Made by a program: the position numbers and the translations under genes. A stretch of 64,000 nucleotides of DNA, from positions 896,001 through 960,000 of the forward strand of contig CM000432.1 of the NCBI GenBank assembly GCA_000165345.1, given 5' to 3'. Each line of letters begins with the position of its first letter. Position 1 is the stretch's first letter. The notes under the pieces are model-generated. The model made no database searches and had not been told where the DNA came from. It worked only from the letters and a program-made list of their open reading frames with translations. Shown piece by piece: positions 6,735 to 42,700 of this stretch.

Positions 6735-9700
6735 TTATAATAAAAATGACTGACAAAGCCAATTCAAAGAATCAATATCATATGGAATATCATCCTCAAG
6801 AATTGCATGTTCACCTTGGTAATGACTTGGATTGAGAGCAATACTTAGAGATGCATTAAAAGCTTGAACAGAAATAACTGAATTATTCGAATAAATTGTT
6901 GGACTGATTTCTTTAACAATTGAATTATATCTTTCTCTAAGCTGTAAATATGAAATATCTCCCAATGGAGGAAGAATTGAAGGGCTATTTTCCGCATCAT
7001 CAGAAGTGATTGTAGAAGGAGTATTTTCGCCATTATTTGAATTTATCGCATTTATTTTAAACTTTAGTTTGGTAAAATTATCCTCAACTCTAAACTCAAA
7101 TTCAATACTATCTTGAATTTCAAACATTTTTTGTGGTATCATATGTAATACTGGCTTCCAAAATGTTGTTTTATGATAACAAATCTTTTTATTAAGATCA
7201 TTTTGAATACTTTCCATTGGTATGGTATTTTCAGTTAACTCATTTATTGCAGAATTTACAGAATTTGATGAAGAAGTTGTTGTTGGAGTATTTTCTTCCA
7301 AATAATTAAAAGAGTTGATCCTTTCAGTATTATCAACAAATAATGGGCTTGTTGTAAGCACATTTCCATCATCAATCCAAAGATCAAAGAAAACTACAAC
7401 CGAATTAACTCTTCCTTGCTTAATTATTTTCGAGTTTATCTCCTTCTTCCAATCAGAAAGCTTTAAAAATTCTTCAGAATTCAAATCTAATGTTAAAATA
7501 TGGAAAATTTTGCTCATTTCAGATATGTTATACTTATTATTATTTTTAATAGGAATCCATTGTGAGTTTCCTTCGAATCTATAAGTATCCCAAAAACTTA
7601 TATCAATATTATGTTCATCACATAAATTTGGACCAATTCTCGCAACAAATCCATAAAATGAAATTCTATTTGGTACTGGAATATTTGGAACCTTATTATT
7701 ATTATATTTTCTTACTAATCCATTACTAAATGCAGTTCCCCAAAGTGGAATTATTCCTTCGCTTAGACCATCATGGTCAAAATTCAATCCAGTAAATAAT
7801 CTAACCTTTTCCTCAACAAAGTAATATTGAATATTACTTGTATTTGGACCAATATTTGCAGTTTTTGGTAATATTTGCCTTACATCACAATTAAAAAACG
7901 TTAATCTTTCAGATAGCTTTTTATTTAAGATATGCTTTGCTGAAGAGTTATTCGAAATCCATTGATAATACTTCATCTTTTCTTGGTATTCTTTTTCTTT
8001 ATTCAGATTCTCCAAACCACGACAATCTTCTGAAACTTCACTCATTGGTTTCCAGTATTTTGATTGGTTTGCTTCCAAATTATCATTTAAAGACATATCA
8101 TGATTATATAGTTTTTTTATTTCATTTTCAACAACATCAGAAAGTAAAATATGGAGATTATCTTTAATTATTTTCATATATAAATCTTGAACATTTGGAA
8201 GATTTTCAATACAAGTAAAATGGAAATCAGATTTTTTCCAATTACTATATAAGTTATTTTGTGTTGATTTATTCATTTTAGAGCTTATAAAAAGTAATAT
8301 CATTGGTAATATAGCTCCAGGAGATGTTGAAGTTATTAATCCTTCAAATATTTTACCAGCAGTATTATGTATTATTGAGGATTTGTAATTATTGATTAAA
8401 GCATTGGATAACATTTCTATGGATTTTGTATCCCATAAGTATTCTATAACACTTCTTGGTAATGAAGTTGAGAATTTATTTGGTAATTTGTATTTAATCA
8501 ACTGTTCCTTTTTCAATAGACTTAGAGATTCAGCATTGGGATTAATTACTATTCGAGTTTCTTCAATTTGGAAATCAAACTTAATTTTTACTGCATTATT
8601 CAGATTATCATTTGTAATATTACCTCCAATCCAATTAATTGCTGGAGGAATAATTGACTCCATTCCAATTTGATTAATATCACGAGAAGAATCTATTAAT
8701 AAAATCTCTTCATCATTAAGTTCTTTAATGGCCTTAAAACTGAGTAATATTGAGTTTATTTGAGTATTTGGTTCAAGTAAATAATCTATTGTTCCATTAT
8801 AAGTTTGCTTATCTGCATCATTTTCATCTTTACATTCAATTCTTGAAATGGTAAAATTTTCACTGGAAATTGAATTTAAAGTAAAGTAATTCATTTTATT
8901 CTTATTTAGCATTTCCTCTAATGGTAAATAACCTAATAAAATTGGTTTTGAAATATATTTGATATGTGAATATGCATTATTCACTTTAAATGCTTCCCAA
9001 TAAGGAGACCAAAGGCCTTCATTAAGTCTGCTCATATTAATTTCAGAAATACTTTGATTCTCTAAATTTAATGATGGAATATTTATATCAGAAAATTGAA
9101 TATAAACTTTAATTAAGCTTGGAGTAACAGAAATATTCATTTTTTGTTCATTTCCAACAATATTACTTCTATTAATATTTATTGGTATACTTTTTAAGTT
9201 TGGAATTAAACCATAACCTAGAATTCCTGGCTCGAAAATGCTTGGATCAATTATTATGGAATTTGGATTAAATATATTCCAAAATTCAGACTTCAAATGT
9301 TGAACATTTCCATGAATTATTTTCAAGGATTTATTTTCATTGGATTCTGAACTTAATTCATCAGAAGAGATTTTTTGTGATGATTCAAAATCTTTCAAGA
9401 ATTCTGAATGATACAAGTTAAAGTTTGCGAATTTGACATTATTAGATAATGAAATGTTTGAATATAAACGATGAATTATTGATGAACTGGACTTTGCTTG
9501 GGTTATTGCAATAATATTACTACTCATTCCGAACTTTCTATAATAATTTACTGGTAAAATAAAAGATCCAGTACCAATAAAAACAACATTTTCTGCATTC
9601 AATTTATTCAAAAGATTAATCCAATTGTCTGCATATAAATAATATTGATCAACAAAATTCTCAATAATTCTCTTAAACCATTGTATTTCTGAAGAAATCT

Positions 9701-10664
9701 GAAGTAATCTAGAAATTCCTTTAATATTATCACTTTCGGAATCTTTTGGATCAGATTTAATAAATTTCATGGATGGTTCAAAAATTAATTTGTCACCATA
9801 TTTAGATTTAGCCCTTTTCTTCTTATTTTGGTTTTCTGTATTGCTGTCTAATGGAATTGTTCCTCCCAATGAAAGCTTTAAATTCTCAATTTCTTCTTGG
9901 GAAAGGTCAGGAGAAAGCTCTAATTGAAGATTTTCATGATTTCCAATTGAAGAAGCAAATTCTTCATTTCCAGATAACATGCTACTAAAGTTTGAAGGCA
10001 AATTGATGATATTCTGAGAATTGGGTAGTTCTTCTTGAGAGTTATTTTTTGCATTTTCTGCAAGTTCCTCAAGCTCTAACTCCCTTAAAGCCTCCTCAAA
10101 TCTGGAGTAATCTACTGTAACTCGTTTTAATGCATTGTTGTGGTCAGCCTTCTTTTCGCAAATCTTTATCAGGTTTTCTATTTCTTTAATTGAATTTTCA
10201 TTATTACTCTCATTTTCTCGTTTTAGGGCTGCTTTAAACACAATTACAGCTTTATCAAATATATTAAGATAATATAATGCTTTTCCAGCTCTGTACCATC
10301 CTTTGGACCAGTTTGGATTTAATAAAATACATTCCTTTGCATCTTGAAAAGCTTTACTATAGTTATCTTCTTGCCCTAGTTTTAAGTAGCATTGACTTCT
10401 ATTTGATAATAACTTGGAAAGTTCTATTTTATCTTCATCCTTCAGGTCTATCTTATATCCAGAAATTGCTTGCGTAAATGAATTTATTGCATCAATATAT
10501 TTACCCTTACCAAACTCTATCTTTCCTTGTTCTGTAAATTTACCTAGAGAATATTTTACTATTCCAGGATCTATTCCTTTAAGTGTGGATTGTATTCCTG
10601 ATAAGTTGCCATTCCCAAGCTCGCTCATTAATTTGCAGACCGTGTCCTCAATATTAGGGTTCAT
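6735..10664 (-). CDS. large TPR-repeat protein (1309 aa) with a possible class-I SAM methyltransferase (PRMT-like) fold, PRMT9-like architecture
   Basis: N-terminal TPR-like repeats (AINSFTQAISGYK...GWYRAGKALYYLNIFDKAVIVFKAALK). Downstream segment VVFIGTGSFILPVNYY...NNVKFANFNLYHSE resembles PRMT motif I (VLDIGTGTGLLS) and post-I. ATG checked at 10664. Confidence 0.6.
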   Translation of the reverse strand: MNPNIEDTVCKLMSELGNGNLSGIQSTLKGIDPGIVKYSLGKFTEQGKIEFGKGKYIDAINSFTQAISGYKIDLKDEDKIELSKLLSNRSQCYLKLGQEDNYSKAFQDAKECILLNPNWSKGWYRAGKALYYLNIFDKAVIVFKAALKRENESNNENSIKEIENLIKICEKKADHNNALKRVTVDYSRFEEALRELELEELAENAKNNSQEELPNSQNIINLPSNFSSMLSGNEEFASSIGNHENLQLELSPDLSQEEIENLKLSLGGTIPLDSNTENQNKKKRAKSKYGDKLIFEPSMKFIKSDPKDSESDNIKGISRLLQISSEIQWFKRIIENFVDQYYLYADNWINLLNKLNAENVVFIGTGSFILPVNYYRKFGMSSNIIAITQAKSSSSIIHRLYSNISLSNNVKFANFNLYHSEFLKDFESSQKISSDELSSESNENKSLKIIHGNVQHLKSEFWNIFNPNSIIIDPSIFEPGILGYGLIPNLKSIPININRSNIVGNEQKMNISVTPSLIKVYIQFSDINIPSLNLENQSISEINMSRLNEGLWSPYWEAFKVNNAYSHIKYISKPILLGYLPLEEMLNKNKMNYFTLNSISSENFTISRIECKDENDADKQTYNGTIDYLLEPNTQINSILLSFKAIKELNDEEILLIDSSRDINQIGMESIIPPAINWIGGNITNDNLNNAVKIKFDFQIEETRIVINPNAESLSLLKKEQLIKYKLPNKFSTSLPRSVIEYLWDTKSIEMLSNALINNYKSSIIHNTAGKIFEGLITSTSPGAILPMILLFISSKMNKSTQNNLYSNWKKSDFHFTCIENLPNVQDLYMKIIKDNLHILLSDVVENEIKKLYNHDMSLNDNLEANQSKYWKPMSEVSEDCRGLENLNKEKEYQEKMKYYQWISNNSSAKHILNKKLSERLTFFNCDVRQILPKTANIGPNTSNIQYYFVEEKVRLFTGLNFDHDGLSEGIIPLWGTAFSNGLVRKYNNNKVPNIPVPNRISFYGFVARIGPNLCDEHNIDISFWDTYRFEGNSQWIPIKNNNKYNISEMSKIFHILTLDLNSEEFLKLSDWKKEINSKIIKQGRVNSVVVFFDLWIDDGNVLTTSPLFVDNTERINSFNYLEENTPTTTSSSNSVNSAINELTENTIPMESIQNDLNKKICYHKTTFWKPVLHMIPQKMFEIQDSIEFEFRVEDNFTKLKFKINAINSNNGENTPSTITSDDAENSPSILPPLGDISYLQLRERYNSIVKEISPTIYSNNSVISVQAFNASLSIALNPSHYQGEHAILEDDIPYDIDSLNWLCQSFLL

Positions 10665-11804
10665 TTTCTTATTCTCTTTTTTTTCCCCCTATATTTTCAA
10701 GTAGAATAAAAAAAAAAAGCAAAAACCTAATTTAATTAAAGTTTTTATCAAATTTAAAAAGAACAAAAAAACCTTAATTTTTTTTTCTATAAAAGTAATT
10801 GACATTGCATTTATATTGCAGTTGTGCATAACAATAAGTTACCGGCATTTATAACTAAGTTTCGTGTTATTTTCTATTAATTCCTCTTGTGGGGGCAAAA
10901 AATAAGGAGACTCCTAAACTATTCTATTATTTAAATTAGTACTAAAATTAATAGTTTTACTATTTTTATTTATTAGAAGACGTGAAGTATTATTATTAAT
11001 AAAAAATAATTTATTTAAAATTGACACACATCAGGCGGGCTCTGCCCAACAAATTAATTTAAGAAAATGCAGCTTTAATGTTAGAGCATTTAAATACTTA
11101 TAATTATTTCATAAGAAGACGTCAATTTGAATTGTTGTTTAGCAATATTAATCCTTTATAATTCTCTCTTTATTTTTATTAACTCTGAAGACAACTATTA
11201 ATGGTTTTTTTGTTAAAACCAAATAATTATTATCCTAAATTATATTATCCTCGCATTTTGCTTTATATTACGTAATTACATGTAATAATTACAATTATTT
11301 GCATGCATATTTGTTTTCTGTTAGAGTTTTGTAATGTGGCAATGAAATTATTAAATTACATACCGGTGTTCAAGTTGGAAAATTATGTGTCACAATAACA
11401 TTTATTTACAAAAACTATTAATATTATTTTATTCTTAAATAAAAACATTATGAAATATTTATTTATTATTGATCATTATTTCTTTTCAATTTTTGAAAAA
11501 ACATTGTAATATCTTGATAAATTCTTTCTCTAAATAAATATAATTTGTGTAAAATTAGAAACAATAAAAATCAATAGGTAGAATAATAGCTGTAAGATAA
11601 TAGGAGAAATGAAATAAGGTAATTGTAAGGAAAAAAAAAGTTGAAAAGTTTATATTCTAGATTTATTAGAATAATAATATTAATAGTAGTTTGCGAAATA
11701 TAGGTGAATTCTATGTATTGACAAGAAGGAATTCGCGAAAAGAAAACTTGAAATTCAAGAAATTCCTCCATATAAAAACTCCCATCACTTTGGTGGAGAT
11801 AAAT

Positions 11805-12222
11805 TTAATGTTCTTCAGCTTTGTGGATAGGATTAATGAGTGGAAACATTTGAGAAAGGTAAACGCAAAACCACATAATCCATAGGCAGAAAGTCATCAT
11901 TACTACCACAACAAGTGAAATCCTGAGAAGGCAAAAAAGTTATTAGTAGGTAATTTGCAGTTCTAGCCATCGTTTCAATGCAAAATTGATCTGTTTTGTA
12001 TTACTTTTTGTAAACAAAATCAGCAAATGACCAGAAGAAAATGCATCCTTTGACTAACAAAAGATACATATCCAATAATTAAACTTACTTAGCAGTATCA
12101 GATCTGGAAAGATTCTTACTTCCCTTAATACCAAAATATACTGTTGAAGAAACCGCAGCAATGAAACCCAGTACTCCAAAAATTATTGAACCAAAAATCG
12201 CATTATCATAAGGAGGAGCCAT
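11805..12222 (-). CDS. VMA9: V-type ATPase V0 subunit e (ATP6V0E/Vma9 homolog), 83 aa, two exons: 12089..12222 and 11805..11922, intron 11923..12088
   Basis: Not in the ORF track. Exon 1 encodes MAPPYDNAIFGSIIFGVLGFIAAVSSTVYFGIKGSKNLSRSDTA. The donor GTAAGT overlaps an in-frame TAA. A polypyrimidine acceptor (cttttttgccttctcag) lies 166 nt downstream. Exon 2 continues in frame with KISLVVVVMMTFCLWIMWFCVYLSQMFPLINPIHKAEEH*. The two-helix product aligns with subunit e (human [31 protein letters not shown], yeast MMFLMWAITFLCQLHPLVAP). A G-box GGGCGGGAAAG (12360-12370) sits about 140 bp upstream. Confidence 0.7.
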
Positions 12223-12827
12223 AATTTCTCAAATACTTAATAGTAACTCCAGAATCTCTTATTCTTTATTTTATAAAGCTATTTTCAAGCCTTTAATTTT
12301 ATTTTTTATATTTATTATTTTTTTGTATCTTTATATTAATTTTTTAAATTATTGGCTTTGGGCGGGAAAGTATTTCCATTTAATTACTATGTGACAAATA
12401 ATTACCCATATTATTAAGAGGGAAAGAAGGTAAGCTAAATGTTAATAGAGAAATTGGGAAAATAAAATAAAGTAATATTGGTTAGTGTTAAAAAATAAAA
12501 ATAATATCTATGAAAAAACAAATGTAATGTATAAGAACTAACGTTGTATAGTGGAATTTGATAAAGTTTGATATTTTTCCATTATATGTTGAGTAATGTC
12601 TTGAATAGTATTTTAGATGTAGAAGATTCAATTTCTAAGAAGAAGAAAATAAACTTTTCAATTTATTGTATAGCTAATTATATATTAATCTATTAGTTTA
12701 CAATATATATTCACATTTAATATTAGAAAATTTATTTTGGGATATTATATAATATATAGCGAAATTCAAAATATTTTGATAATTTTTAAAAAAAGACTAT
12801 TTCGAGGTTTATTGGTGTGTGTAAGGT

Positions 12828-13955
12828 ATGGCAACTATTAATAATGCAGTATTTTTGTCAGATGATGAAGAAGATGAATCCTTTCATGGATCTGATGCCT
12901 CTTCTATAATAGAAGGTGAGAGGTAAGTCTTTAATAAATTAGATGGATTTTTTTTTTAAATATATTTAATTTCTACCACTTTAATATTTATGAACATAAA
13001 AGTTCTGAAGAAGAGGTTTCTAGTTCAACAAATAGAAAATCGAAAAAATCATCTTTAAAAGATGTAATTAATGATCGAAAAGTAGAAAAGATATACAAAG
13101 AGTTATTGGAAGAATCTAAAAAGGAATTTCAAGAAAGAGTATCTACTGTAAGTAAAGACCATTTTATGTTGGAATTTCAAAAGAAGTGTTTTGATCCATT
13201 AAGAAAGAAAAATTCGAATTTACATGAATTAAGACATTATGTAGATCTTGGTGTAAGTTTACAATTCCTCAAAACTAATGGAGAAATTGTTTGGAAAGAA
13301 TTATCAGAGAATTCTCAGCATAACAAAATTAATATAAGTTATGAAGCAAAGAGATTATCACAATTCTTACTTACTTAATCTCCATTTGATAATCGATTTT
13401 CTATTCACTAATTTCTTAATCACCTTTTCTTATAAATAGATTTCCAAAGTATTTGAGAATCCAATAAACTTTGATATTTCAAAATTCAAAATTTCGAGCC
13501 GAAATCTGAGCAAAGAATCAGAGAAAGAAACACGTAGGATGATTGAGGAAGCTCTAGGAAGTTTAGAGGAAAAAGGAGTGCGATATATTGATAAGAAAGT
13601 TAAATATGCAGGTGAAACGTACACTATTAAAGAAAAAGTCGACCCGGAGACATTTTCAAGGAAAAAAGCACGAACATCTTCCACAGGAATGCAAGCTCTT
13701 GATGAAATTGTTGCTAATCTTAATAAGGAAATTAACATTAACTCAATACAAAAATCACACTCTGATTGGACTGAATTTAGACAGATGGCGGGCCTCGAAT
13801 CTCAGCTTGAGCGCCAAAGAAAACATGGCTATATTTCAAAGACGGCATTTCTGCAAAAAGCAGATTGGAAATTACATGAAAAAGAACTTGAGATTAAGAG
13901 AAGAAGCGGTGGTAATAACAATATTAGCAGTAGTAGCAATGCAAGCGGTAACTAA
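12828..13955 (+). CDS. SWC5: BCNT-C domain protein (CFDP1/Swc5 homolog), about 287 aa, three exons: 12828..12922, 13003..13252, 13440..13955
   Basis: Acidic N-terminus (MATINNAVFLSDDEEDESFHGSDASS) typical of Swc5/CFDP1. C-terminal KSHSDWTEFRQMAGLESQLERQRKHGYISKTAFLQKADWKLHEKELEIKRR matches the BCNT-C domain. Two GTAAGT...AG introns (12923..13002 and 13253..13439) join three ORF pieces in frame. The ORF track shows them as separate 90-aa and 138-aa ORFs. The second intron is less certain than the first. Confidence 0.65.
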
Positions 13956-39716: not shown

Positions 39717-42700
39717 TTAACTAAAGTTAACATTGATTAACAATACAAACATTAAAATTGACCCAAAAAGCAAAGGTAACTTTACTGGAGTATTCAGAAT
39801 ATAAAAGGGGGAAGTGAGGAATGGTAAAAGTCTCATTGTAGTTTCAACTGAATTCAGAAGATTTGAACATATTGGAAGAATATCATAAACGTCTGGTACC
39901 CATTGCCAAAATTCAATAGTTAATATATGTATTTCAACCATAATATGCATTATATATAATAATGAAGCAGAAAGTAGTAGTGTTGAAATTGGAACAACAT
40001 TCCATAGTCTTATGGTTTTTATTGGCAGAGAATTAATTTCAACATAGCAGTAAACCAATACAAAAGAGATAGTTACAATTGCCAAAACATCTCTGAAAAG
40101 GTCAATAGGCTTCCAAAAATATTTGCATATTCTATGGGAAGTTCTTCTTGAATCAGCCCAAATAAAGAAAGGATATATTTGTGCTTCAAGGACTTGGTAG
40201 TATGAAGTTTCAGAATTACTTTCAATATTGCATAGATTAGCCTTGGAATAATTAATTTCGAAATGTTCAAAGTCTTGGTACTGAATTTCTGTGGAATAAT
40301 GATTTAATTTAAGGAAATTACTGAGCCTAATTTCTGGGCTCTTACTATTAATGGAATTCACAGGGGTTGTAGAGTTAGAAGGTTGAAGTAAATTTAAAGT
40401 ATTTTGAGGTGGATTTAATGAAAAACTATCAGTTACTTGAGTTGTCTTATTATTCCCAGTTTGAATATTCGCATTTGAGATTTCCAAAGGTCCACCATAT
40501 GCAATTTCTCCTACACTTTGCAATCTAATATTGGGATTACTCTGAGTTTTAAGTGAGTTATTTGAAGAATTCTTGGTTAAATACGCACTTGGTGAATTAT
40601 TTCCATTTGAACTTAATATAGAGTTCTTATCATCAATTATAAAAGACTTATTTGTAGATTTTTTATCTCTTGATTGTTTTTTTTCTCCTGAAAATAATGG
40701 AGTACCAATTGAATTGGCTCTGCTCACTTCCTTTGATGAGTAAGATTGAGAAATTAAAATTTTGCTATTTTTAGCATTTGGAAGTAAAATACTTAAAGGA
40801 GTTGAGAGAGCAGAATTAAAGATACTTGAGAGTGAATGGAAATGATATAAAGCAAGAATTACTGATATGATTGGGGAAGAAATCATTGAAAGTAATTGCC
40901 AATAGTATATAAATGCTGTAAAATGGAGAAATGAAACTGTTAATGGGTAAAATCTTGTAAATTGGAAAAGATGAGGATATTGGAATTGATAAAGCTTTCT
41001 ACATGAGTTTATATTACCAAATATAAATGTTAAATCTGCAGAGCTATATTTCCAGTCTCTAGAAATTGAAAATTCTGGACTACTATAACAATTAAAAGGT
41101 AACTTCATGGTAATTAGAAATGAAAATATGAGACAAATAACTTGAACAATAAATAATAAACGGTAACATTTGAAAGTTTTTTCAACATTATTATAACATA
41201 ATTTTGAAATTTCCAAAAATCCAATTTCTGGAATCTCTGTATAAGTATTTTCTGGAGAAAGATTATTCCTGGAAACTAGAAGCTTTTTAATTTGCTTTGA
41301 AGATATATCTTTCATATCAGTTGTTTGAGAAAGCGTGGCATTTCTAAGATTACTATGAAGATAAATTGCTCTCTTTGCTGTTTTAATTACTTGAGCATTT
41401 GTTTGTTCATAAAGAATCATAATTTCTGGTAATAATAAACTATTATTACATTTAAAACAAGAATTCAATTGGTCATACATATTCTCATCAATTCTAAATC
41501 CATGAAAAGTATAAATGATGATTGCTATACAAGTTAGTAATACAAAGCATACGATTTCTTCGTAAATTTGAGAAATTACAATCCATATAAAGAATGTAAG
41601 AATTGAAATTAGCTTTATAAAATTAAAGGCTTTTGAGAATTTGATAATAAGTGAAATAAGTGAATATTGGAATGACTCATAGAGATTTTCGTGATTACTT
41701 CTATACTTTCTCACTGGGAATTCTGAAACTTTATTAATTAAAAAACAAGCTTTAATGGAATTTAAAAGTCCTAACTTAATATTATTTTTTGAAGGAAATG
41801 GGATATTTAGCATAAAAACCAAGCCAAAATCCATTGTAAAATTACATCCCAAATCAGACAATACAGTTTCTTGGTTTATTTGACTTGAATATTTTATCAG
41901 CTTATTCTTAGCTGGATTACAAATCGAATAAAAACTTAAATTTGAATTGCAGTATATGGAAAAAAGTGTCAAAGCTGTAACGAAGCAAAGGATTACAAAT
42001 ACTATATCAGATTTTGTTAGCTTATTTTCCCAAGGAAGATTGGATATTTCTCTTAATTTCTCTATTAAACTCAGCTTGATTGGACAACCTTCATTAGTTT
42101 TACTTGTTCCGAAACTTTCAATAAACTCCATTTGGCCTTTCTCATTCTCAACATTATACATATTATCGTAATTATTATTGGAATTCCAAAAATGATAATT
42201 TTCGCTCTCCGAATTACCAAAATCTTCTTTAAACCCAAAAATATTCTTTTTATCATCAATTCCTACTGAAGAACCCAAATTATCCTCATCTATAGTATCT
42301 TTTTTATTTGAAGAAAAATTCATCTCCCAGTACCCACTCTTTGAATAATAATGTCTAACATTACCACTTTGAGTACCATAATATAAACAATAACTTGGAA
42401 GTCCACCAAATAGTTCAAGAATACTTGAAGGTTTATAATCTATTAAAGCAAGTAAATTTAAGCTCTCCATCAACTGTTCAGCAGAAAATAATTTTACGAA
42501 TCTTGAGGACAAAAGTGCATGCAATACCGGTAATGTGTCTCTCTGACCTTTATATTTATATAAAATTGTGGCGGCCCTTTGCAGAGGGGAATATGCATGC
42601 TCATCAAATGGCGGGAAATCACTCGGAAGAGCATCCAATAAGGCTAGAACATGAATTGCATCTGATGGAGATTTATAACTAACTCTGGTAAGGATTTCTC

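What the first reader, a model, noticed from the sequence alone, without database searches (positions are those of the whole stretch)
11805..12222. Unannotated two-exon gene for V-ATPase subunit e, hidden by a stop-overlapping splice donor
No ORF of 60 aa or more exists here, so the six-frame track misses it. A 44-codon ORF (MAPPYDNAIFGSIIFGVLGFIAAVSSTVYFGIKGSKNLSRSDTA) ends at AAG-TAA, where the TAA is part of a perfect GTAAGT donor. A strong polypyrimidine acceptor lies 166 nt downstream. Splicing restores a frame encoding a second TM helix plus the subunit-e C-terminal signature (MMTFCLWIMWFCVYLSQMFPLINP versus yeast MMFLMWAITFLCQLHPLVAP and human [17 protein letters not shown]). Subunit e is often missing from annotations of compact parasite genomes.
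Basis: partly seen in the sequence, partly recalled or inferred. Interest (0 to 1): 0.7.

Follow-up and report, generated by a model that had tools for sequence, protein, structure and literature searches.

The report
Known two-exon V-ATPase subunit e gene

Summary
On the minus strand, an ATG at 12222 opens a 134-nt exon. A 166-nt intron follows (12088..11923, GTAAGT...polypyrimidine-CAG), then a 118-nt exon ending in TAA at 11807..11805. The spliced CDS encodes 83 aa. It scores 48.8 bits on Pfam PF05493 (cut-off 25), which is V-ATPase V0 subunit e, and the match runs across the exon junction. In the PDB it matches only subunit e chains.

Nine Cryptosporidium orthologous loci keep both exons under purifying selection: 57 of 73 variable sites are third codon positions. 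The intron diverges to 35-40% identity and varies in length (155-278 nt). The GTAAGTTTA donor and the AG acceptor never change.

The "unannotated" claim fails. The exact 83-aa protein is in NCBI and UniProt for C. parvum, C. hominis and relatives, with a gene span of the same 418 nt. Isaza et al. 2015 list it as new gene cgd4_new_06, the only PF05493 gene added in the re-annotation. A stop inside the donor is simply what a phase-2 intron with a GTAAGT donor gives. The neighbouring BCNT gene appears to show the same arrangement.

One by-product: the public C. ryanae model (57 aa) has a wrong second exon.

Novelty: already known. Interest: low.

The parts
12089..12222 (-). Exon 1 (134 nt). ATG at 12222. 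Encodes MAPPYDNAIFGSIIFGVLGFIAAVSSTVYFGIKGSKNLSRSDTA plus the first two bases (AA) of Lys45. Contains TM helix 1 and the hydrophilic loop.
   Evidence: Sequence and translation. 80-99% identical across seven species with mostly synonymous change. Hydropathy peak of 2.13 centred at residue 17. AF2 helix at residues 4-34.
11923..12088 (-). Spliceosomal intron, 166 nt, phase 2. Donor GTAAGTTTA (12088..12080), pyrimidine tract, and acceptor CAG ending at 11923. The in-frame TAA (12087..12085) lies inside the donor.
   Evidence: Stops in all three frames. Identity falls to 35-40% in C. felis and C. xiaoi while the exons stay at 80-82%. Length is 155/166/172/180/228/278 nt in different species, with all three residues mod 3. 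Donor 9-mer and AG are invariant.
11942..11948 (-). TACTAAT, a likely branch-point sequence 19-25 nt upstream of the acceptor AG (inferred).
   Evidence: Read. One mismatch from the yeast UACUAAC consensus (established knowledge). Related TAAC/CTAAT strings occur at the same place in the other species. Not tested.
11805..11922 (-). Exon 2 (118 nt including TAA at 11807..11805). Supplies the G of Lys45, then ISLVVVVMMTFCLWIMWFCVYLSQMFPLINPIHKAEEH. Contains TM helix 2 and the subunit-e C-terminal motif Q-M-x-P-L-I-x-P.
   Evidence: Alone it scores 41.1 bits on PF05493, profile positions 31-60. Protein sequence from M53 to H83 is invariant in nine Cryptosporidium loci. Q69, P72 and P76 are invariant in 22 family members. 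Hydropathy peak of 2.44 at residue 55.
12360..12368 (-). TTCCCGCCC (GGGCGGGAA on the + strand), a GC-rich motif 138-146 nt upstream of the ATG, in the 605-nt spacer shared with the divergent BCNT gene. Probable promoter element, E2F-like (inferred).
   Evidence: It is the only block conserved in the upstream alignment. It sits at -131 to -146 in 8 of 9 species. TTCCCGCC occurs 8 times in the window against 0.16 expected. The link to E2F-type motifs of Cryptosporidium promoters is my recollection of the literature and was not tested.

Best explanation
The locus is the single-copy Cryptosporidium gene for V-ATPase V0 subunit e, the orthologue of yeast Vma9p, plant VHA-e and mammalian ATP6V0E1/2. 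The window is 99.8% identical to a C. parvum-type chromosome 4 assembly.

Shown:
- It lies on the minus strand, and a 605-nt spacer separates its ATG from that of a divergent BCNT gene.
- The primary transcript would carry one 166-nt phase-2 GT-AG intron.
- Joining 12089 to 11922 gives an 83-codon mRNA.
- The product has two hydrophobic helices (about residues 8-31 and 46-68), joined by a short basic loop and followed by the conserved QMxPLIxP tail.
- By sequence it is a member of PF05493.

Inferred from what is established for the family:
- It inserts into the ER membrane and joins the V0 proton-translocating sector beside subunit a and the c-ring.
- It is needed for assembly or stability of a working pump, as shown by the Vma- phenotype in yeast. 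Its exact role is still called elusive.

The stop codon inside the donor is a by-product of intron phase and donor consensus. Its practical effect is that ORF-based scans see only a 45-codon and a 34-codon fragment.
For: Family membership:
- Spliced product scores 48.8 bits on PF05493, E 1e-12, cut-off 25. The match covers residues 9-78 and profile positions 3-60 of 62, so it runs continuously across the junction.
- PDB phmmer gives subunit e2 36qu_e at 5e-9 and e1 7uw9_e at 3e-6, with weaker hits to yeast Vma9 and mammalian e.
- A profile of 22 relatives hits only subunit e chains in the PDB (9 distinct sequences, best 1.4e-13).
- There are 60 relatives at E<=1e-3 among 1.84 billion representatives. 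Most are 70-90 aa and colinear over residues 8-81.
- The alignment has no gap at K45|I46, and G11, Q69, P72 and P76 are invariant.
- All 22 aligned proteins hit PF05493.

Splicing, from comparative evidence:
- Variable sites by codon position are 10/6/57.
- 50 variable codons carry only synonymous changes, against 15 with an amino-acid change.
- Intron identity is 35-64% in distant species, against 80-93% for the exons.
- Intron length varies and is not held to multiples of 3.
- The donor GTAAGTTTA, the AG and the in-frame TAA are invariant.
- The decoy donor GTAAGA at 12119 is GCAAGA in the other species examined (ubiquitum, felis, xiaoi; C. ryanae and the Logan contig).

Prior annotation:
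- The exact protein is in public databases.
- The gene span is the same 418 nt in 12 assemblies.
- Isaza et al. 2015 list PF05493 under cgd4_new_06, with parvum/hominis identity 1, dN 0 and dS 0.0447. They state that new models required TopHat read mapping plus a Cufflinks or MAKER prediction.
- My own count of 2 synonymous and 0 non-synonymous differences from the hominis-type locus agrees with those values.

Topology and function:
- Two hydropathy peaks above 2.0.
- AF2 helices at 4-34 and 40-74.
- Family function as reviewed in PMC9280200.
Against: - I saw no transcript. The protein collection holds no intron-less (cDNA-derived) contig for this product, so the junction rests on comparative evidence and on the published re-annotation criteria.
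- The Foldseek search of the single-sequence model against the PDB was uninformative (best E 1.8).
- Nothing here shows that the protein is part of a Cryptosporidium V-ATPase, or what it does there.
Confidence: 0.95

Rival explanations
1. The two ORFs are not joined. The 45-codon ORF is a stand-alone one-helix micropeptide or non-coding, and the downstream frame is an independent 34-codon GTG-initiated ORF or a relic.
For: Both fragments appear as separate ORFs in the mechanical list. Prokaryote-style gene calling on a metagenomic contig produced only the 45-aa product (P0005). No spliced transcript was seen here.
Against: - Full-length relatives from other eukaryotes are colinear with the spliced product and show no gap at the junction.
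- The Pfam match spans both exons.
- The residues just after the acceptor, upstream of the GTG, are conserved as coding sequence.
- The intervening 166 nt behaves as an intron in nine loci.
- The 2015 re-annotation required transcript support for new models.
Confidence: 0.02
2. The gene is spliced, but at a different donor or acceptor from 12088/11923.
For: Twelve other GT..AG combinations keep an open frame from the same ATG to the same stop, including one using GTAAGA at 12119.
Against: - All twelve remove sequence that is conserved at the codon level.
- Their acceptors lie inside exon 2 and have no pyrimidine tract.
- GTAAGA at 12119 is GCAAGA in the other species examined.
- All cross-species insertions and deletions fall between GTAAGTTTA and the AG.
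- Only the 12088/11923 model yields the 83-aa product held in the public databases.
Confidence: 0.02
3. It is a decaying pseudogene or a chance resemblance in AT-rich DNA.
For: It is small, and several deposits name it only 'hypothetical protein'.
Against: - Strong purifying selection across nine loci. The C-terminal 31 residues are invariant and changes are overwhelmingly synonymous.
- Pfam E-value of 1e-12.
- Synteny is conserved in all species examined where flanking sequence is held: BCNT upstream, a TPR protein downstream and, where the stretch reaches it, an MTS methyltransferase.
Confidence: 0.01

Closest known systems
Annotated Cryptosporidium V0 subunit e: cgd4_new_06 of Isaza et al. 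2015; CUV05815.1 / UniProt A0A0S4TFK7_CRYHO; C. parvum CPHLJ_4g3725; C. felis KAF7455850.1; C. ubiquitum XP_028873771.1
   Same: For the parvum/hominis-type entries the 83-aa sequence is identical, the gene span is 418 nt as here, and the neighbours are the same. C. felis, C. ubiquitum and C. xiaoi encode 83-aa orthologues with a few substitutions (93% identity for C. felis) and gene spans of 407-480 nt. The same PF05493 assignment was reported in 2015.
   Different: Nothing of substance. Several deposits still name it 'hypothetical protein', and one calls it 'hydrogen-transporting ATP synthase'.
Plant VHA-e1/e2: PDB 36qu_e 'V-type proton ATPase subunit e2' and 7uw9_e 'subunit e1', 70 aa
   Same: The closest solved relatives (E 5e-9 and 3e-6). 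The two-helix hairpin and the tail motif AQMNPLIVPI versus SQMFPLINPI align end to end.
   Different: The Cryptosporidium loop is 7 residues longer than in the plant chains. That loop length is shared with many other relatives in the metagenome and genome set.
Yeast Vma9p (PDB 5vox_c, 6o7t and others; 73 aa)
   Same: Same Pfam family, same size class and same C-terminal Q-x-x-P-L-x-x-P motif. The functional reference for the family is its Vma- phenotype, its interaction with Vma21p and its status as an integral V0 subunit (PMC9280200).
   Different: Pairwise similarity is weak (E 0.038 with the single sequence, 1e-4 with the profile). Function in Cryptosporidium is untested.
Mammalian ATP6V0E1 / ATP6V0E2 (PDB 6wm2, 6vq6; 81 aa)
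   Same: TM2 and the C-terminal motif align (profile E 1.6e-5 to 2e-4).
   Different: Only the second half aligns significantly. The mammalian proteins have a longer C-terminal tail.

Membership tests
V-ATPase V0 subunit e (Pfam PF05493 ATP_synt_H; Vma9p / VHA-e / ATP6V0E) | Sequence scores above the curated Pfam gathering threshold over most of the model. | tested here: met
   48.8 bits against a cut-off of 25, E 1e-12, profile positions 3-60 of 62.
V-ATPase V0 subunit e (Pfam PF05493 ATP_synt_H; Vma9p / VHA-e / ATP6V0E) | Small protein (about 70-90 aa) made of two transmembrane helices joined by a short polar loop. | tested here: met
   83 aa. Kyte-Doolittle peaks of 2.13 (centre at residue 17) and 2.44 (centre at residue 55), with a trough at residues 32-42. 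AF2 helices at 4-34 and 40-74, pLDDT 69.6.
V-ATPase V0 subunit e (Pfam PF05493 ATP_synt_H; Vma9p / VHA-e / ATP6V0E) | Conserved tail motif after TM2: Q-[ML]-x-P-[LIM]-x-x-P. | tested here: met
   SQMFPLINP here. Q69, P72 and P76 are invariant in 22 members. It aligns to AQMNPLIVP in plant and CQLHPLVAP in yeast.
V-ATPase V0 subunit e (Pfam PF05493 ATP_synt_H; Vma9p / VHA-e / ATP6V0E) | Experimentally defined subunit e chains are the specific best matches among solved structures. | tested here: met
   With the family profile, all 9 PDB sequences at E<=1e-3 are V-ATPase subunit e. With the single sequence, the top 7 are subunit e.
V-ATPase V0 subunit e (Pfam PF05493 ATP_synt_H; Vma9p / VHA-e / ATP6V0E) | Predicted fold superimposes on solved subunit e. 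| tested here: inconclusive
   Foldseek of the single-sequence AF2 model against the PDB gave no match below E 1.8. A bare helical hairpin carries too little 3D information.
V-ATPase V0 subunit e (Pfam PF05493 ATP_synt_H; Vma9p / VHA-e / ATP6V0E) | Physically part of the V0 sector and needed for V-ATPase assembly or function. | not testable with these tools
   Needs purification, tagging or knock-down in the parasite. Known for yeast (PMC9280200).
Spliceosomal GT-AG intron | GT donor, AG acceptor, pyrimidine tract and branch-like sequence, with stops in all frames. | tested here: met
   GTAAGT...TACTAAT...TTTTTTGCCTTCTCAG, with stops in all three frames.
Spliceosomal GT-AG intron | Across species the interior evolves freely in sequence and length while splice sites and flanking coding frames are kept. 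| tested here: met
   Six intron lengths between 155 and 278 nt. Interior identity is 35-64% in distant species against 80-93% for the exons. Donor 9-mer and AG are invariant.
Spliceosomal GT-AG intron | Spliced junction observed in RNA. | not tested
   No RNA reads are available here, and no intron-less contig was found in the collection. The 2015 re-annotation states that new gene models needed RNA-seq or cDNA support, but I did not see the reads for this gene.

The most novel reading that the evidence does not exclude
The invariant 9-nt donor with its built-in TAA might be more than consensus. Regulated intron retention would then yield a 45-residue single-helix peptide (exon 1 only) that competes with, or substitutes for, full-length subunit e during V0 assembly at some life-cycle stages. 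Nothing here supports this beyond the conservation of the donor, which ordinary splicing already explains. The neighbouring BCNT gene appears to have the same arrangement.
Probability: 0.02. Interest if true: 0.35.

Novelty: already known. Interest (0 to 1): 0.08.

Why it matters
It matters little for biology. The gene completes the expected V0 subunit set of the Cryptosporidium proton pump, and databases have held it since 2015.

Its value is methodological:
- It shows that reading raw sequence can recover a tiny split gene exactly.
- It illustrates why ORF-length filters and prokaryote-style gene callers miss such genes. The original annotation lacked it, Logan/ENA contigs yield only the 45-aa fragment, and the C. 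ryanae model has a wrong second exon.
- The one actionable item is to correct the C. ryanae model FG386_003319 and to give the 'hypothetical protein' entries a proper name.

Tried and rejected
- Foldseek of the AF2 model against the PDB gave only chance-level helical-hairpin matches.
- Literature searches for 'cgd4_3725' and for Cryptosporidium + V-ATPase + 'subunit e' found nothing. The gene turned up instead under its 2015 provisional name in a supplementary table.
- I looked for an intron-less (cDNA) contig encoding the exact protein as direct proof of splicing. All 12 contigs are genomic.
- I tested other explanations of the local ORFs. The antisense 64-aa ORF, the downstream 66-aa ORF and the intron-internal 45-aa ORF have no Pfam match.
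- I looked for another hidden gene or RNA in the unusually long 1.14-kb spacer downstream. Across species there is no coding-like conservation. The whole window has no tRNA and no Rfam family.
- I enumerated alternative splice models and rejected them.
- Word-indexed protein search found only 3 relatives. The exhaustive HMMER search was needed to see the family.

Full report
**Observation**

Reading the minus strand and translating it confirms every coordinate in the finding.
- The ATG is at 12222.
- The ORF runs to ...GCT AAG TAA, with AAG at 12090..12088 and TAA at 12087..12085.
- GTAAGT occupies 12088..12083, so the stop codon sits inside a consensus splice donor.
- The acceptor TTTTTTGCCTTCTCAG ends at 11923.
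- Removing 12088..11923 (166 nt) rebuilds the split Lys codon (AA|G) and opens a frame that ends at TAA 11807..11805.
- The spliced CDS is 252 nt and encodes MAPPYDNAIFGSIIFGVLGFIAAVSSTVYFGIKGSKNLSRSDTAKISLVVVVMMTFCLWIMWFCVYLSQMFPLINPIHKAEEH (83 aa).
- The mechanical ORF list shows only the fragments: 45 aa at 12085..12222 and 34 aa at 11805..11909.
- One detail differs from the finding. A 64-aa TTG-initiated ORF on the opposite strand (11691..11885) overlaps the end of the region. It has no family match.

**Identity**

- The spliced protein scores 48.8 bits (E 1e-12, curated cut-off 25) on Pfam PF05493, the V-ATPase V0 subunit e family. The match covers residues 9-78 and profile positions 3-60 of 62, so it runs across the junction.
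- Exon 2 alone scores 41.1 bits. Exon 1 alone scores nothing.
- Against all PDB sequences the best matches are plant subunit e2 (36qu_e, 5e-9) and e1 (7uw9_e, 3e-6), then yeast Vma9p and mammalian e chains.
- An exhaustive HMMER search of 1.84 billion representatives found 60 relatives at E<=1e-3. Most are 70-90 aa and colinear with residues 8-81.
- Twenty-one of them align with the query without any gap at K45|I46. G11, Q69, P72 and P76 are invariant.
- All 22 sequences hit PF05493.
- Their profile hits nothing in the PDB except subunit e chains.
- Hydropathy shows two peaks above 2.0 separated by a polar loop. AlphaFold predicts helices at 4-34 and 40-74.
- A Foldseek search with that model was uninformative, as expected for a bare hairpin.

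**Is it spliced as proposed?**

I could not see RNA. The comparative evidence is strong.
- I fetched orthologous loci from hominis-type, meleagridis-like and tyzzeri-like assemblies. Those species names are my recollection of the accession prefixes.
- I also fetched loci from C. ubiquitum, C. felis, C. xiaoi and C. ryanae, plus a Logan contig from an unnamed Cryptosporidium.
- Exons stay 80-99% identical, while the intron falls to 35-64% in the distant species.
- Intron lengths are 166, 172, 155, 228, 278 and 180 nt, covering all three residues mod 3.
- The donor GTAAGTTTA, the AG and the in-frame TAA are invariant.
- Variable sites fall 10/6/57 on codon positions 1/2/3.
- 50 variable codons change only synonymously, against 15 with an amino-acid change.
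- Of 13 GT..AG pairs that keep one frame open, only 12088/11923 has a consensus donor and a pyrimidine tract and keeps all conserved coding sequence.
- The decoy GTAAGA at 12119 is GCAAGA in the other species examined.

**Already annotated**

- An exact-sequence look-up finds the 83-aa protein in NCBI, UniProt and EukProt. Entries include CUV05815.1 / A0A0S4TFK7_CRYHO 'ATPase V0 complex subunit e1/e2', C. parvum CPHLJ_4g3725 and C. hominis ChTU502y2012_408g0095.
- The same 90%-identity cluster holds the C. felis, C. ubiquitum and C. xiaoi orthologues.
- The gene is called over exactly 418 nt in 12 assemblies.
- The window is 99.8% identical over 6.4 kb to one of them (CM109964.1) and about 97% identical to the hominis-type ones.
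- Isaza et al. 2015 (PMC4637869) re-annotated C. parvum Iowa with cDNA and RNA-seq and added 74 genes.
- Their dN/dS table gives CHUDEA4_new_06/cgd4_new_06 identity 1, dS 0.0447 and dN 0. This agrees with the two synonymous and zero non-synonymous differences I count between the window and the hominis-type locus.

**The 'stop-overlapping donor'**

A GTAAGT donor that follows two bases of a codon (phase 2) always reads xxG TAA. The divergent neighbour, a BCNT-domain gene starting at 12828, shows the same thing. Its first ORF ends GAG AGG TAA with GTAAGT at 12923, and its annotated product is far longer than that ORF. The arrangement is generic. Its only consequence is that ORF scans truncate the gene.

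**Surroundings**

- Oriented with the gene, the order in all species examined is BCNT (divergent, ATG 605 nt upstream), subunit e, then a roughly 1300-aa protein with only faint TPR-repeat matches. An MTS methyltransferase lies beyond BCNT wherever the held flank reaches it.
- The only conserved block in the upstream spacer is TTCCCGCCC at 12360..12368. It sits 131-146 nt before the ATG in 8 of 9 species.
- The 8-mer TTCCCGCC occurs 8 times in the window against 0.16 expected. I read it as a promoter element of the E2F-like class described for Cryptosporidium. That link is from memory and is untested.
- The 1.14-kb spacer downstream shows no coding-like conservation.
- The window has no tRNA and no Rfam match.

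**Mechanism**

Shown: the gene structure, the family membership and the two-helix topology.

Inferred from the family (review PMC9280200): the 9-kDa protein inserts in the ER membrane, joins the V0 sector with the help of Vma21-type factors, and is needed for a functional pump. Its precise role remains unresolved in all organisms.

**By-product**

The public C. ryanae model FG386_003319 (57 aa, 'hypothetical protein') keeps exon 1 but joins it to a wrong second exon (...SETAK|VFIGSISILPAP). The true exon 2 lies 278 nt after the donor and gives an 83-aa orthologue.

**Verdict**

Novelty: already known. Interest: low.

Noticed in passing
L011:2001-2630 (C. ryanae GCA_009792415.2, VHLK02000081.1): The deposited orthologue FG386_003319 is a 57-aa 'hypothetical protein' with no Pfam hit. 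Exon 1 is right but it is spliced to a wrong second exon (VFIGSISILPAP). The real exon 2 follows a 278-nt GTAAGTTTA...AACAG intron and restores an 83-aa subunit e ending ...MMTFCLWIMWFCVYLSQMFPLINPIHKAEEH.
   Followed up: yes
window 12361, 14248, 24414, 25989, 32940, 42610, 46487, 62977: The GC-rich 8-mer TTCCCGCC occurs 8 times in this 29%-GC window against 0.16 expected from shuffles. The copy at 12361-12368 is conserved in position upstream of the subunit e gene in 8 of 9 species. It is probably a recurrent promoter motif (E2F-like, from memory). The other seven copies were not examined. The one at 42610 lies inside a long ORF.
   Followed up: partly
window 12828-12928 (+): The first ORF of the divergent BCNT-domain gene also ends in a TAA embedded in a GTAAGT donor (GAG AGG TAA, G of the donor at 12923). 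The same arrangement therefore occurs twice within 1 kb. The full exon structure of this gene was not worked out.
   Followed up: partly
window 10665-11804: The spacer between the subunit e stop and the ATG of the next gene (a ~1300-aa protein with faint TPR matches, ORF 6735..10664 on the minus strand) is 1.14 kb. That is about twice the genome's mean intergenic length of 552-589 bp (PMC4637869). It diverges quickly between species, except for short islands (TGCATGCA, GAGCCCGCC, CACGTCTTCTAATA) shared from C. parvum to C. ubiquitum. No coding-like signal was found.
   Followed up: partly
L012:1265-1696 (Logan SRR31860995_512428) and L013 (ENA ERZ27280756): Short contigs from sequencing runs carry the same gene from a Cryptosporidium that matches none of the named species fetched here. 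Exon 1 is 91% identical at the protein level and the intron is 180 nt. Prokaryote-style calling recorded only the 45-aa exon-1 ORF. The upstream motif is TTGCCGCC instead of TTCCCGCC.
   Followed up: partly
window 13253, 42869, 45736 (+); 27338, 19327 (-): The extended donor string GTAAGTTT of this intron occurs five more times in the window. Some copies may mark other introns, and 13253 lies inside the BCNT gene. They were not examined.
   Followed up: no
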